Shown piece after piece: positions 18,285 through 64,000 of a DNA stretch of 64,000 nucleotides. The stretch covers positions 1-64,000 of IMG/VR virus record IMGVR_UViG_3300031555_003603. One strand, 5' to 3'. A program made the translations under genes and the position numbers. The notes under the pieces were generated by a model, which made no database searches, was not told where the DNA came from, and saw only the letters and a program-made list of their open reading frames with translations. Within the stretch, counting starts at the first letter, position 1; each line of letters begins with the position of its first letter. The DNA is from a virus.

Positions 18285-18788
18285 GTGATAATTTATACTG
18301 ACGGAAGCGCACATCCAAACCCCGGACCGGGTGGTTTTGGGGTGATAGTACTTGACAAAGATAAAAATTTTTGTAATAATAATTATAGTTTAGTTGAAGT
18401 ATATACTAAACAATTTGATAAAACTACTAATAATATATGTGAATTAAAAGCTATATTATATGGTTTTTTAAAATATGGAGTAAATATAAATAATAAGGAG
18501 TTTGCTGAAATTCCAGTTGTATATAGTGATTCCGCCTATGCTATAAATACTTTTGAAAATTGGATGTTCTCTTGGGCCAATAATGGTTGGCGCAAGAGTG
18601 ATAAAAAAATACCAGAAAATTTAGAAATTATTCAAGCCTACTATGATTGGTATCAAAAAGGTTATAGAATTGAACTTCGTAAAGTAAAAGGGCATAGTGG
18701 TAATAAATGGAATGAATATGCTGATAAGCTTGCTACTGGAAAATTAACTCCGGAAGAAATTATAGAATTGGAGAAAATAAATGGCTGA
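18285..18788 (+). CDS. rnhA: ribonuclease H
   Basis: IIYTDGSA...ELKA...YSDSAYAIN...KVKGHSGNKWNEYADKLA; GTG start after AAGGAG. Confidence 0.7.
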   Translation: MIIYTDGSAHPNPGPGGFGVIVLDKDKNFCNNNYSLVEVYTKQFDKTTNNICELKAILYGFLKYGVNINNKEFAEIPVVYSDSAYAINTFENWMFSWANNGWRKSDKKIPENLEIIQAYYDWYQKGYRIELRKVKGHSGNKWNEYADKLATGKLTPEEIIELEKING

Positions 18789-20688
18789 TAAAAAGAAATT
18801 ATATACAGAAGATAGTATTGAAAGCTTAAGCCCTCTTGAATTCACTCGATTAAGACCAGGCGTTTATGCTGGTGATACAACCTATTCTACTCAACTACTG
18901 ATAGAAATTTTATCTAATGCTATTGATGAATTCAATTTAGGACACGGAACAGAAATTAATGTTACTTTAAATAAAGATGTAGTTATCGTAGAAGACCATG
19001 GACAAGGTTTTATTGTAAATCATACAAGAGATGATGGAAAAACTATCCTAGAAGCAGCTTTTTCTGTTCTCAATACTTCTGGTAAATACCGTGAAGACGG
19101 AGCATACGAAGGAACCTCATTAGGTTCTTTTGGTATTGGTTCAAAAATTACAACTTTCCTATCTCATTATCTAGATGTTATCACATTTAGAGATAAACAA
19201 TTTGAGAGAATATATTTTAAAGAGGGCGTATTCAATAAACGAGAGGTTGGAAAACTAAATGATGATACAACTGGCACTATTGTCAAATGGCAACCAAGTG
19301 AAGAATTCTTTACCCATACCGAAGTTGAAATTGGTAAAGTAAAAGAACTTCTACAGACTATTGTTTGCCTATGCCCCGGTCTAACTATCAAGTTAGACAA
19401 TAATGGAGAAAAAACTGAATATTTTTCTCAAAATGGTCTCCGTGATTATGTGGACCAAAAGGTAAAGGATAAAGAAATTATTGATAATAGATTTTATTCC
19501 AAATTTAAGAATGGAAAAGAATCTATTGATTTTATTCTTACTTATACAACTGCTTATAATGGAACGATTATTCCTTATGTAAATACCGGTCTTACAGAGA
19601 AAGGTTCTCATATTACACTTATCAAGGCTCTTATTACGAAAGAATTTAATAAATTTTTCAGAGACCAGAAGTGGTTAAAAGAAAAAGATGAAAATCTAAC
19701 TGGCGAAGATATCGCAGAAGGTCAGTATATTGTATTTAATATTACCGCTTCTGGAGTCGCTTATGATGCACAGGTAAAAAGCAATATTACTAAAATTGAC
19801 ATGAAGCCTTTTATTAATGGTCTAACTGAGGATTTGCGTGTTTGGTTAGAAACTAATAAAAAGGAAATTAAAGATATTGCGGATAAAGCTATTAACGCTC
19901 GGAAAGCTCGTGAAGCAGCCAAGAAAGCAAAAGATGCAGCCCGTAACACATCAACTCAAGGTAAAAGTAAACTGCTTAGCTTACCAACCAAGCTGGTTGA
20001 CTCTTGGGGTAAAAATCGTTCTGAGTGTGAGTTATTGATATCAGAAGGTGATAGTGCGGCCGGCGGTCTAGTTGGTGCGAGAGACGGTGAGTTCCAGGCG
20101 GTATTTCCAGTACGAGGTAAAACTTTGAATTTATATAAGGCAGCAAGTGAAAAAATTTTTGCCAATCAAGAAATTGTAAACATTATCAAAGCCCTTGGCC
20201 TTGAGCTAGACCAAAAGACCAAAAAGCTTAATTATGATAAATCGAAATTGCGTTATGGAAAAATTATTTTATGTGCAGATGCTGACCCAGATGGACAAGC
20301 AATTAAAAACTTGCTTTTAACTTGTTTCTGGTCTTTGTGTCCAGAACTTGTTATCAACGGTCATATTTATGCTGCTATTCCGCCGCTATTTAGAATCACA
20401 ACAAAAAAGAATGAATATATTTATTTAAGAGATACCGCGGCCCTGGAAGAGTATAAAAAGACTCATATCGGAGAAAAGTATGTCGTAAATAGAAATAAGG
20501 GTTTAGGCGAACAAGACCCTCAAGAACTTGCTGAGTGTTTACTAAATCATAAGACACGAAATGTAGCTCAAATTACTGTAGAAGATGTAGAAAAAGCAAA
20601 TAACCTATTTGAAGTGTTTATGGGTCCTAACGCGTCTCTAAGAAAAGATTGGATTCTACAACACTCTGAGGAGGCTAATATAGAATGA
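18781..20688 (+). CDS. type II DNA topoisomerase large subunit (GyrB/ParE-like ATPase-TOPRIM; T4 gp39-like)
   Basis: GHKL ATPase N-terminus, TOPRIM EGDSAAG; no TAG codons. Confidence 0.75.
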   Translation: MADKKKLYTEDSIESLSPLEFTRLRPGVYAGDTTYSTQLLIEILSNAIDEFNLGHGTEINVTLNKDVVIVEDHGQGFIVNHTRDDGKTILEAAFSVLNTSGKYREDGAYEGTSLGSFGIGSKITTFLSHYLDVITFRDKQFERIYFKEGVFNKREVGKLNDDTTGTIVKWQPSEEFFTHTEVEIGKVKELLQTIVCLCPGLTIKLDNNGEKTEYFSQNGLRDYVDQKVKDKEIIDNRFYSKFKNGKESIDFILTYTTAYNGTIIPYVNTGLTEKGSHITLIKALITKEFNKFFRDQKWLKEKDENLTGEDIAEGQYIVFNITASGVAYDAQVKSNITKIDMKPFINGLTEDLRVWLETNKKEIKDIADKAINARKAREAAKKAKDAARNTSTQGKSKLLSLPTKLVDSWGKNRSECELLISEGDSAAGGLVGARDGEFQAVFPVRGKTLNLYKAASEKIFANQEIVNIIKALGLELDQKTKKLNYDKSKLRYGKIILCADADPDGQAIKNLLLTCFWSLCPELVINGHIYAAIPPLFRITTKKNEYIYLRDTAALEEYKKTHIGEKYVVNRNKGLGEQDPQELAECLLNHKTRNVAQITVEDVEKANNLFEVFMGPNASLRKDWILQHSEEANIE

Positions 20689-63500: not shown

Positions 63501-64000
63501 AAGAAACATCGGTTCCCAGGAAAATATTTATATTAGAAACCCAAATATTAGGAACTCCATTTGGCGTAATAAGCGTAGGTTCCTCTTTACCTTCTTCTTT
63601 ATATTTAAAATCACCATTTTGATATAAATAAATTGAAATTGTATTTATAATTCCAATAGGAGAAGAAAATTTATGTGCTTGCTGCTGCATCATTGGCGCA
63701 ATGTAGGCATATGGATTACCGAACATATCGGTCATACTATCTAAAAATAAATCTCCGCCACTGATTTCCTTGTCATCTTCGACTTGCGCGAAGTGTACTC
63801 TTAGACCATAGCGTCCGCCGCGCATATTATATGCATCTAATAGACACTAAAAATCTGCTTGAATAGCCAAAGTATCATAAATGGCGGTATCATATGAGCC
63901 AGTAAATTTTTCTATAAAAATTTCATTTAAGGGTTCATTATTATCTTTATTAATTCCATTGGCTTCTATACTGGCAGATAAATTTTCATTTGGGTCGGTA
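60583..64000 (-). CDS. tail fiber protein, 5'-truncated by window edge (>1139 codons), ~19 in-frame TAG
   Basis: No TAA/TGA in this frame for 3.4 kb at ~33% GC; repeated GNITG.SGTFSGTI.AT.G.IGGW modules typical of phage tail-fiber repeats. Confidence 0.6.

What the first reader, a model, noticed from the sequence alone, without database searches (positions are those of the whole stretch)
18781..64000. TAG codons are almost excluded from core replication genes but dense in late structural and homing-endonuclease genes
- Zero TAG: topoisomerase subunits, LigA, DnaB, primase, Dda, NrdD/NrdG, DHFR and ThyA.
- A single TAG: DnaE (1294 aa).
- Many TAG: tail fiber (~19), the 732-aa structural protein (~11), the endolysin (6), and the homing endonucleases (2 to 5 each).

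This asymmetry fits a model in which a phage-supplied suppressor gates late-gene and selfish-gene translation. It also means early genes remain translatable before suppression is established.
Basis: partly seen in the sequence, partly recalled or inferred. Interest (0 to 1): 0.65.

Follow-up and report, generated by a model that had tools for sequence, protein, structure and literature searches.

The report
Amber-recoded phage spares its replication genes
This is part of a phage genome that reads the stop codon TAG as glutamine and keeps TAG out of its replication genes while using it freely in tail, lysis and nuclease genes; the pattern is real and holds across the phage's relatives, but it was already published for other recoded gut phages.

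Summary
In 76 gene models (20,035 codons) there are 80 in-frame TAGs. Densities per 1000 codons are 1.25 in replication and nucleotide genes, 1.5 in other plus-strand genes, 10.8 in tail and lysis genes, and 13.3 in homing-endonuclease-type genes. Late versus replication gives an odds ratio of 8.8 (p=4e-13). Off-frame TAG is uniform.

TAG encodes Gln: 31% of residues aligned to it in relatives are Q, against a 3% background.

RecJ-like and RuvC have three each. Several tail-strand genes have none.

The bias holds across the clade. GyrA orthologues have 0 TAG in 38,277 codons, while a conserved membrane-anchored GIY-YIG gene has 17 per 1000. TGA-recoded relatives place their in-frame TGA (Trp) in the same nuclease genes.

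The interpretation matches the published model of Borges et al. It is only partly supported here. No suppressor tRNA lies in the window or in the fetched parts of close relatives; one more distant recoded relative has a tRNA(CUA) resembling tRNA-Gln(CUG). Expression timing is untested.

Verdict: a new member of a known kind, of modest interest.

The parts
18267..25123 (+). TAG-free replication block: RNase H, GyrB-like, GyrA-like and NAD-dependent ligase (2256 codons, 0 TAG)
   Evidence: Pfam; counts. Orthologues: GyrA 0/38277 codons, GyrB 4/29498, LigA 2/22176.
25171..25374 (+). 67-codon ORF with 1 TAG, directly downstream of an 11/12 sigma-70-like promoter at 25120-25148
   Evidence: Orthologues in 33 loci: 27 TAG in 2041 codons.
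26012..27097 (+). GIY-YIG protein with an N-terminal hydrophobic helix and a long coiled-coil-like middle (both read from the sequence, not predicted); 5 TAG. It starts just after terminator 25968-25997. It is a conserved clade gene rather than a sporadic homing endonuclease.
   Evidence: Pfam GIY-YIG, E=1.7e-8. Matched in 45 loci: 211 TAG in 12447 codons. TGA-type relatives: 10 TGA in 954 codons. Terminator.
27316..28936 (+). ThyA and DHFR, plus a small ORF; 0 TAG
   Evidence: Pfam; counts.
29372..33601 (+). phrog_2367 protein, AAA_24 (Sak4-like), zinc-finger protein (1 TAG) and DnaB (0 TAG)
33923..34798 (+). Free-standing GIY-YIG endonuclease, 2 TAG; its stop codon overlaps the primase start
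   Evidence: Pfam; counts. Relatives: 38 TAG in 4582 codons.
34791..35894 (+). Toprim primase, 0 TAG. A TAG lies one codon upstream of the ATG taken as the start.
36264..38018 (+).
   Evidence: The Pfam DHH match starts at residue 66 and spans the third TAG; counts.
39607..40800 (+). Dda-like SF1 helicase, 0 TAG
   Evidence: Pfam.
41885..45769 (+). DnaE (Pol III alpha), 1294 codons, with a single TAG at 43937-43939. A 12/12 sigma-70-like promoter lies at 41826-41854.
   Evidence: Pfam. The TAG aligns to CAG or CAA (Gln) in 4 representative relatives, including the standard-code L019. Eight orthologues have 0 TAG. Promoter.
46772..49033 (+). NrdD with no internal TAG. A terminal TAG at 49010-49012 is followed by 7 codons and a TGA.
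   Evidence: The Pfam NRDD match ends 4 residues before the TAG. Homology in relatives ends at RVKH.
48999..49736 (+). HNH-type homing endonuclease between nrdD and nrdG, 4 TAG. It is absent at this site from the relatives in L002-L015 and present in the 95%-identical L177.
   Evidence: PHROG 374/559/9084. No hit. L177 has a 240-aa gene with 4 TAG.
49733..50242 (+).
   Evidence: The Pfam Fer4_12 match spans the TAG. It aligns to Q in 10 of 13 loci and to TAG in 3.
51248..52888 (+). dUTPase (1 TAG), RuvC (3 TAG) and an unknown membrane protein (3 TAG) at the end of the plus-strand block
   Evidence: Pfam; counts. RuvC orthologues carry 1-7 TAG, and two of the sites are TAG in most relatives.
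15976..17646 (+). Endolysin (PG_binding_1 plus SH3_3), 6 TAG
   Evidence: Pfam.
3142..3840 (+). It lies directly downstream of terminator 2980-3003 and promoter 3005-3033.
   Evidence: PHROG.
56603..63999 (-). Tail module. The tail-fibre-like ORF (1138 codons here, 19 TAG) runs off the window. It is followed by a 121-codon gene (0 TAG), a 471-codon gene (4) and a 732-codon gene (11).
   Evidence: Counts. In the 95%-identical L177 these genes directly follow a 2912-aa tape-measure protein (PF10145), whose fetched part has 27 TAG in 1459 codons. PHROG 1887 'tail protein'. 30% identity to TR-TP1 gp36, annotated 'tail protein'.
52905..56584 (-). Second minus-strand unit downstream of terminators at 56117-56192, with mixed TAG use: 53231-53965 has 3, 55555-55989 has 2, and phrog_20016, phrog_16490 and three small genes have 0

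Best explanation
The window comes from an uncultivated tailed phage that uses genetic code 15, in which TAG encodes Gln. TAG behaves as a third, synonymous Gln codon whose permitted frequency depends on the gene.
- It makes up about 26% of Gln codons in tail, lysis and endonuclease-type genes.
- It makes up about 4% in replication, nucleotide-metabolism and other plus-strand genes.

The most likely cause is purifying selection. TAG is removed from genes that must be translated by the unmodified host machinery, before a suppressor tRNA(CUA) charged with Gln has accumulated. As a consequence, TAG-bearing genes cannot give full-length product until suppression is on. These include nucleases that sit inside early-type operons.

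**Shown:** the recoding, the amino acid, the class bias and its conservation across the clade.

**Inferred:** the order of expression, the phage origin of the suppressor, and whether the delay is an adaptation or only a by-product.
For: **TAG is read through.**
- Pfam domains continue across TAG in PhoH, DnaE, NrdG, RecJ-like, RuvC and GIY-YIG.
- ORFs of at least 100 aa total 28,093 aa with TAG as sense, against 19,678 aa with the standard code.

**TAG means Gln.**
- At 71 sites, 147 of 474 aligned residues are Q, against a 3.1% background. A further 72 are TAG.
- A public pipeline called the 95%-identical contig with Q at TAG.

**Class bias.** The statistics are. Off-frame TAG is flat.

**Clade-wide conservation.**
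- GyrA 0/38277 codons, GyrB 4/29498, LigA 2/22176; DnaE 0 TAG in 8 loci.
- GIY-YIG1 211/12447; the 732-aa tail protein has 6-18 TAG per orthologue.

**Independent replicate with another codon.** Six TGA-type relatives place TGA in GIY-YIG1, GIY-YIG2 and HNH genes (27 of 28 sites), and 19 of the 28 align to window Trp. GyrA, GyrB, primase, AAA_24 and LigA have none.

**Not simply relaxed constraint.** LigA and GyrB-like are 37-54% identical to their orthologues yet TAG-free. RuvC is 81% identical and TAG-rich.

**Gene-level, not site-level.** Individual TAG sites turn over: in distant relatives P(TAG|TAG)=0.26 against P(TAG|CAA or CAG)=0.21.

**Promoters.** Strong sigma-70-like promoters and terminator-promoter modules lie only on the plus strand. 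None precedes the tail genes.

**Suppressor in the wider clade.** A recoded relative has a tRNA(CUA) in the tRNA array upstream of the MVP-like gene. It aligns (76% mean column identity, four sequences) with the tRNA-Gln genes in the corresponding arrays of L096 and L085, which look standard-code or nearly so by ORF statistics, and most closely with their tRNA-Gln(CUG).
Against: - No suppressor tRNA, release factor or aminoacyl-tRNA synthetase lies in the 64 kb, or in the fetched parts of the closest relatives.
- The separation is statistical, not absolute. DnaE, NrdG, dUTPase, PhoH, RecJ-like and RuvC carry TAG, so at least some replication and repair proteins need suppression.
- Tail-strand genes 54420-55268 and 60218-60583 avoid TAG (P about 0.01 each), as does lysozyme-like 38061-38894. 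Timing alone does not predict this.
- TAG shows no 5' bias within genes (KS p=0.74). A gate optimised for early truncation would favour the 5' end.
- TAG-bearing genes are only weakly clustered on the plus strand (runs test P=0.05).
- Expression timing was inferred from gene function and consensus promoter matches only.
Confidence: 0.7

Rival explanations
1. Drift plus cost of suppression. Once a suppressor exists, TAG accumulates neutrally from CAG and CAA in fast-evolving or weakly constrained genes. It is purged from conserved or highly expressed genes because suppression is imperfect. Expression timing plays no role.
For: - TAG density correlates negatively with conservation in one set of relatives (rho -0.63, p=0.004).
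- TAG sites are not positionally conserved.
- GC-rich, CAG-preferring genes, which may be highly expressed, have no TAG wherever they lie: MVP-like, Band7, the winged-helix gene and phrog_16490.
Against: - In the other three sets of relatives the correlation is weak (rho -0.18 to -0.32, not significant).
- LigA and GyrB-like are as divergent as TAG-rich genes but stay TAG-free in 35-48 relatives. RuvC is conserved and TAG-rich.
- The tail-fibre-like protein (19 TAG) and the tape-measure protein (27 TAG in the fetched 1459 codons) must be read through completely. Suppression must therefore be efficient when they are made.
Confidence: 0.2
2. Mosaic origin. TAG-free genes were recently acquired from standard-code genomes, and TAG-rich genes come from lineages that have been recoded for a long time.
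For: - The clade mixes standard-code, TAG-recoded and TGA-recoded members.
- phrog_20016 and phrog_16490 are shared at about 62% identity with 42-kb phages of about 55% GC.
- NrdD is 66% identical to that of Thomasclavelia phage TR-TP1, while DnaE is only 23% identical.
Against: - The replication genes are syntenic and TAG-free in about 50 relatives spanning 42-69% GyrA identity.
- They share the window's low GC and its CAA-dominant Gln usage.
- The clearly mobile endonucleases are the TAG-rich genes.
Confidence: 0.06
3. The in-frame TAGs are true stops, from pseudogenes, assembly errors or programmed truncation, and the long reading frames are illusory.
For: The window does contain two other single in-frame stops that look like nonsense mutations: TGA at 1848 and TAA at 9371.
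Against: - There are 80 TAGs, with homology and Pfam domains continuing on both sides.
- Q is enriched tenfold at aligned positions.
- The same genes are TAG-rich in dozens of independent assemblies.
Confidence: 0.01

Closest known systems
Alternatively coded gut phages of Borges et al. (bioRxiv 10.1101/2021.08.26.457843): crAss-like, Lak, Jade, Sapphire, Agate, Garnet, Amethyst and Topaz clades
   Same: - In-frame recoded stops are concentrated in structural and lysis genes, with the replication machinery often in standard code.
- Recoded modules are spread over the genome, as described for Jade, Sapphire, Agate and Lak.
- An intron homing endonuclease is among the most recoded genes in Agate.
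- Clades mix codes 11, 15 and 4.
- The proposed model is the same: early genes are read in host code, and the code switches later.
   Different: - Clade membership could not be tested because the window holds no terminase.
- Relatives' contigs are about 120-190 kb, which overlaps the sizes given for Agate, Sapphire and Jade, but size proves nothing.
- The endonucleases here are free-standing: Rfam found no intron.
- No suppressor tRNA or code-change module is in the window.
Phage Phass-1 and the proposed Phassvirus genus (PMC10607447; OQ749652)
   Same: - A genome of about 136 kb from the gut, with TAG read as Gln.
- 28% of its ORFs are interrupted by TAG; here 24 of 76 (32%).
- It also has an NrdD.
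   Different: - NrdD is only 40% identical.
- Phass-1 carries three tRNA-Sup(CTA) genes and 36 tRNAs. None was seen here.
crAss-like phages using code 15, validated by metaproteomics (PMC9523058)
   Same: TAG is read as Gln, and its use is biased towards late genes.
   Different: The crAss-like clades discussed in that literature are assigned to Bacteroidetes hosts. This window has DnaE, gyrase-like topoisomerase subunits and strong Shine-Dalgarno sites, which (from my own knowledge) point to a Bacillota host.
Thomasclavelia phage TR-TP1/TR-TP2 (PQ571309, PQ571310)
   Same: - Best GenBank match for NrdD, at 66%.
- Similar layout: the tail module converges on RuvC, dUTPase, NrdG, NrdD and DnaE.
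- HNH genes lie inside replication genes.
   Different: - Standard code: 25 of 115 ORFs end in TAG, and the tail fibre is a single 7.2-kb ORF.
- DnaE is only 23% identical.
- No tRNAs.
- It is not a close relative, so its host is only a weak pointer.

Membership tests
Genetic code 15 (TAG = Gln) phage | In-frame TAG inside conserved genes, with homology on both sides | tested here: met
   Pfam matches span TAG in PhoH, DnaE, NrdG, RecJ-like, RuvC and GIY-YIG. tblastn alignments span 71 TAG sites.
Genetic code 15 (TAG = Gln) phage | TAG aligns with Gln in homologues | tested here: met
   147 of 474 aligned residues are Q, against a 3.1% background. Q is the plurality residue at 14 sites, more than any other residue. 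The DnaE and NrdG TAGs align to CAA or CAG.
Genetic code 15 (TAG = Gln) phage | Longer ORFs and higher coding density when TAG is sense, but not when TGA is | tested here: met
   The longest ORF rises from 785 to 1307 aa. Gene models with TAG as sense cover 94% of the window. 31% of codons lie downstream of a first TAG.
Genetic code 15 (TAG = Gln) phage | TAG rarely or never used as the terminator | tested here: met
   All 76 models end in TAA (53) or TGA (23). Only 3 or 4 TAGs sit at natural C-termini, each followed by a nearby TAA or TGA.
Genetic code 15 (TAG = Gln) phage | Phage-encoded suppressor tRNA(CUA) | tested here: not met
   None in the 64-kb window by ARAGORN or Rfam. The rest of the genome could not be reached. 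One more distant recoded relative, L094/L102, has one.
Late-gene-biased recoding (model of Borges et al.) | Recoded stops enriched in structural and lysis genes | tested here: met
   10.8 per 1000 codons against 1.25; OR 8.8, p=4e-13. Tail identity rests on adjacency to the tape-measure gene in L177.
Late-gene-biased recoding (model of Borges et al.) | Replication machinery compatible with standard code | tested here: inconclusive
   Topoisomerase subunits, LigA, DnaB, primase, Dda, ThyA and DHFR have 0 TAG. DnaE has 1, NrdG 1, RecJ-like 3 and RuvC 3.
Late-gene-biased recoding (model of Borges et al.) | Code-change genes (tRNA, release factor, synthetase) written in standard code and expressed before the recoded genes | not testable with these tools
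   No such genes lie in the window, and there are no expression data.
   PHROG HNH and homing-endonuclease families for 3142-3840 and 48999-49736. Pfam GIY-YIG for 26012-27097 and 33923-34798.
   Met for 48999-49736, which is absent between nrdD and nrdG in L002-L015 and present in L177. Not met for 26012-27097: it is matched in 45 of about 52 loci and has a hydrophobic N-terminus and a coiled-coil-like middle. It is better described as a conserved clade gene.

The most novel reading that the evidence does not exclude
In this clade, recoding may act mainly as a translational safety lock on DNA-cutting enzymes rather than only as a late-structural-gene switch. Whichever stop codon a lineage has recoded (TAG in most, TGA in six loci), it piles up in the same nuclease genes within the replication regions compared. 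These are a conserved membrane-anchored GIY-YIG protein and the free-standing GIY-YIG and HNH endonucleases. The TAG-type lineages add RuvC, where two TAG sites are kept in most relatives, one of them right after the first conserved Asp of the motif. These genes are embedded in operons with host-type promoters, next to strictly stop-free replication genes.
Probability: 0.3. Interest if true: 0.55.

Novelty: new member of a known kind. Interest (0 to 1): 0.3.

Why it matters
It adds an apparently undescribed clade to the known code-15 phages. The clade has genomes of roughly 120-190 kb and probably infects Bacillota, and no GenBank phage is close to it.

Because standard-code, TAG-recoded and TGA-recoded members share synteny, the clade offers a clean internal control. 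The same genes carry whichever stop codon was recoded. That argues for selection on the gene rather than a mutational quirk of one codon.

In practice, standard-code annotation would fragment about a third of the coding sequence. TAG density could also serve as a sequence-only predictor of which unknown genes depend on suppression. None of this changes the published picture.

Tried and rejected
**1. Reaching the rest of this genome to find the suppressor tRNA.**
- Exact-pattern scans of IMG/VR and JGI metagenomes found nothing.
- Protein look-ups returned only contigs of 1-2 kb. A contig of 50-200 kb was counted but never shown.
- Two TGA-terminated window proteins were not on record.
- The nearest left-flank relative, L171, has no tRNA in 8 kb upstream.
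- A degenerate suppressor pattern found amber suppressors only in unrelated phages.
- A protein search meant to walk along the 84-kb near-identical ENA contig did not return its tape-measure protein.

**2. TR-TP1 as a close relative or host pointer.** Rejected: only NrdD is similar.

**3. Prophage or host search in GTDB genomes with DnaB.** No relatives.

**4. Site-specific conservation of TAG as evidence of positive selection.** Not supported beyond RuvC.

**5. 5' bias of TAG within genes.** Absent.

**6. Block-wise clustering of TAG genes on the plus strand.** Marginal, P=0.05.

**7. GC content or CAG share as a predictor of TAG density.** Not significant.

**8. Annotating the tail-strand proteins.** PDB and Pfam searches gave nothing useful.

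**9. TGA as a second sense codon in this genome.** Rejected: 23 genes end in TGA at their natural C-termini, and only one internal TGA exists.
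Full report
**What the window is**

Genes run on the plus strand from 1 to about 52,900 and on the minus strand from there to 64,000. The standard code fragments many reading frames. Reading TAG as sense raises the longest ORF from 785 to 1307 aa. It also raises the total in ORFs of at least 100 aa from 19,678 to 28,093 aa. Reading TGA as sense helps much less.

I built 76 gene models that end in TAA or TGA. They cover 94% of the window.

Pfam and PHROG searches identify the plus-strand genes:
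- Replication and repair: RNase H, GyrB-like and GyrA-like topoisomerase subunits, NAD-dependent ligase, AAA_24, DnaB, Toprim primase, RecJ-like exonuclease, Dda-like helicase, DnaE and RuvC.
- Nucleotide metabolism: ThyA, DHFR, a nucleotide kinase, NrdD, NrdG and dUTPase.
- Other: PIN-PhoH, an endolysin, and two HNH-type and two GIY-YIG-type endonuclease genes.

The minus-strand genes have no Pfam match. A 95%-identical relative, L177, resolves them. There, the same genes directly follow a 2912-aa tape-measure protein (PF10145). This is the tail module.

**TAG is translated, as glutamine**

Pfam matches run straight across TAG in PhoH, DnaE, NrdG, RecJ-like, RuvC and GIY-YIG.

I aligned window proteins to related loci at 71 TAG sites:
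- 147 of 474 aligned residues are Q (31%), against a 3.1% background (binomial p about 1e-101, although the sequences are not independent).
- A further 72 aligned codons are TAG.

The single DnaE TAG (43937-43939) aligns to CAG or CAA in four representative relatives, including the standard-code L019. The closest of them has CAG, one transition away. A public pipeline had already called the near-identical contig with Q at every TAG.

**The observation**

Two entries need correction.
- NrdG has one TAG, at a conserved Gln.
- NrdD has a TAG three codons after homology ends, followed by seven codons and a TGA.

| Class | TAG / codons | TAG per 1000 codons | Share of Gln codons |
|---|---|---|---|
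| Replication and nucleotide | 10 / 8008 | 1.25 | 3.5% |
| Other plus-strand | 10 / 6748 | 1.5 | 4.2% |
| Tail and lysis | 45 / 4150 | 10.8 | 25% |
| Endonuclease-type | 15 / 1129 | 13.3 | 29% |

Off-frame TAG is flat at 33-42 per 1000 codons. The statistics are strong:
- Late versus replication: OR 8.8, p=4e-13.
- Endonuclease-type versus replication: OR 10.8, p=2e-8.
- Gene-level heterogeneity exceeds all 20,000 multinomial simulations.

- RecJ-like has 3 TAG, all in its first 70 codons.
- RuvC has 3.
- dUTPase and PhoH have 1 each.
- Tail-strand genes 54420-55268 and 60218-60583 have none, nor does the lysozyme-like gene 38061-38894. P is about 0.01 for each at the permissive rate.

**The bias is a property of the clade**

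IMG/VR holds many syntenic relatives. I counted TAG codons only, inside alignments.

| Gene (orthologues) | TAG / aligned codons |
|---|---|
| GyrA-like | 0 / 38,277 (52 loci) |
| GyrB-like | 4 / 29,498 |
| LigA | 2 / 22,176 |
| DnaE | 0 in 8 loci |
| GIY-YIG 26012-27097 | 211 / 12,447 |
| Small ORF 25171-25374 | 27 / 2041 |
| GIY-YIG 33923-34798 | 38 / 4582 |
| HNH genes | 14 / 1546 and 16 / 1948 |
| RuvC | 1-7 per orthologue |
| 732-aa tail protein | 6-18 per orthologue |

The GyrA-anchored loci fall into three mutually exclusive types: TAG-type, TGA-type and unrecoded. The six TGA-type loci carry 28 in-frame TGA, of which 19 align to window Trp. Twenty-seven of the 28 lie in the GIY-YIG and HNH genes. 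None lies in GyrA (4040 codons), GyrB (3660), AAA_24, primase or LigA. A different codon and a different amino acid therefore mark the same genes. This argues for selection on the gene rather than a mutational effect of one codon.

**What the bias is not**
- Composition: off-frame TAG is uniform, and neither GC nor CAG share predicts TAG density.
- Divergence alone: LigA and GyrB-like are 37-54% identical to their orthologues and TAG-free, while RuvC is 81% identical and TAG-rich.
- Site-specific: within TAG-containing genes, a window TAG is TAG again in distant relatives 26% of the time. The figure for a window CAA or CAG is 21%. This looks more like exclusion from some genes than positive placement in others.
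- Position in the gene: TAGs show no 5' bias (KS p=0.74).
- Clustering: TAG-bearing genes are only weakly clustered along the plus strand (P=0.05).

**Transcription context (inference only)**

Consensus scans give strong sigma-70-like promoters only on the plus strand:
- Three 12/12 matches with an extended -10, at 25371, 41826 (upstream of DnaE) and 50198.
- Several 11/12 matches.
- Five terminator-plus-promoter modules of the form TTGATT-17-TATAAT.

No comparable site precedes the tail genes. Two terminators at 56117-56192 split the tail strand into two units.

Three arrangements bear on the finding:
- The first HNH gene sits directly behind promoter 3005-3033.
- The second HNH gene overlaps both nrdD and nrdG.
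- The GIY-YIG gene 33923-34798 overlaps the primase start.

These TAG-rich genes are therefore probably co-transcribed with TAG-free neighbours. Any delay in their expression would have to act at translation.

**The suppressor**

The window has no tRNA and no Rfam family. I could not reach the rest of the genome. The nearest left-flank relative, L171, has no tRNA in 8 kb upstream. None appears in the fetched parts of the other relatives, apart from the case described next.

More distant relatives keep a tRNA array just upstream of the MVP-like gene. In one recoded member, L094/L102, that array holds a tRNA(CUA). It aligns (76% mean column identity, four sequences) with the tRNA-Gln genes in the corresponding arrays of L096 and L085, and most closely with their tRNA-Gln(CUG). 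Those two loci look standard-code or nearly so by ORF statistics. A phage-borne, Gln-derived suppressor is therefore plausible in the wider group. It is not shown for this genome.

**Comparison with what is known**

Borges et al. (bioRxiv 10.1101/2021.08.26.457843) report the following:
- Recoded stops are concentrated in structural and lysis genes.
- Replication genes are often in standard code.
- Recoded modules are dispersed in the larger clades.
- A homing endonuclease is among the most recoded genes in Agate.
- Some clades mix codes 11, 15 and 4.
- They propose the same early-standard, late-recoded model.

Phass-1 (PMC10607447) and the crAss-like metaproteomics work (PMC9523058, listed) establish TAG as Gln in other gut phages.

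The nearest GenBank phages are distant. TR-TP1 shares only NrdD at 66%, and its DnaE is 23% identical. Phass-1 NrdD is 40% identical, and no GyrA match exceeds 37%.

This is therefore a new member of a known kind. It is supported here at the level of codon distribution and untested at the level of tRNA and timing.

Noticed in passing
window 504-2966 (+), TGA at 1848-1850: A major-vault-protein-like gene (Pfam MVP shoulder, E=3e-19) is one reading frame split by a single in-frame TGA. All 18-19 related loci have TGG (Trp) at that position and a continuous ORF of 809-836 aa. This could be a nonsense mutation, an error or leaky read-through. TGA otherwise ends 23 genes here. Phage MVPs have been reported in a preprint (10.1101/2023.11.10.566534).
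   Followed up: partly
window 9329-10027 (+), TAA at 9371-9373: A PP-family phosphatase gene has an in-frame TAA at codon 15, just after the DLHG motif. The 90%-identical relative L171 has CAA (Gln) there. This is a second transition-type stop in an otherwise intact gene.
   Followed up: partly
loci L105-L160 (relatives anchored on the GyrA-like gene): The clade holds TAG-recoded, TGA-recoded (L108, L134, L136, L139, L140, L141) and unrecoded members. No locus carries both codons in frame, apart from a single TGA in the TAG-type L113.
   Followed up: yes
L019, L024 (standard-code relatives of the tail region): These two loci use no TAG at all: 0 of 52 ORF stops and 0 in-frame. This looks like a TAG-free state, such as might precede recoding.
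   Followed up: no
window 26012-27097 (+): The 'GIY-YIG homing endonuclease' has a hydrophobic N-terminal helix and about 250 residues rich in charged heptad-like sequence ahead of the nuclease domain. It is matched in 45 related loci. It is the most heavily recoded gene of the replication region in both TAG-type and TGA-type lineages.
   Followed up: partly
window 5980-7416, 7459-7911, 10103-11448 (+): An RNA ligase, a YqeY/GatB-like protein, an AAA_33 kinase and a metallophosphatase together look like a tRNA repair or handling set. All are TAG-free apart from a terminal TAG in the phosphatase. A link between YqeY and Gln charging of a suppressor is pure speculation.
   Followed up: no
window 10735-11448 (+), TAG at 11308-11310: The metallophosphatase ends where most relatives end, but with TAG. 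A 45-codon Cys-rich extension follows, ending in DPPDGGYYG, and this ending is shared with relative L124. With the NrdD terminal TAG, this suggests C-terminal extensions that depend on suppression.
   Followed up: partly
window 25371-25949 (+): A double winged-helix (MarR-like) gene has unusually high GC (0.47). It sits behind a perfect TTGACA-17-TATAAT promoter with an extended -10 and ends at a strong terminator. It is a candidate for an abundant early DNA-binding protein.
   Followed up: no
window 53980-55268 (-); loci L016-L081: phrog_20016 and the Gly- and Cys-rich phrog_16490 are TAG-free and GC-rich. phrog_20016 matches, at about 62% identity, many 42-kb phages of about 55% GC.
   Followed up: no
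window 404-467, 2980-3033, 5890-5954, 9240-9294, 31322-31374 (+): Five near-identical modules recur on the plus strand. In each, a strong terminator hairpin runs straight into a TTGATT-17-TATAAT promoter.
   Followed up: no
window 51885-52361 (+), RuvC codons 9 and 66: Two RuvC TAG sites are TAG in 5 and 6 of 7 representative relatives. TAG sites elsewhere turn over freely.
   Followed up: partly
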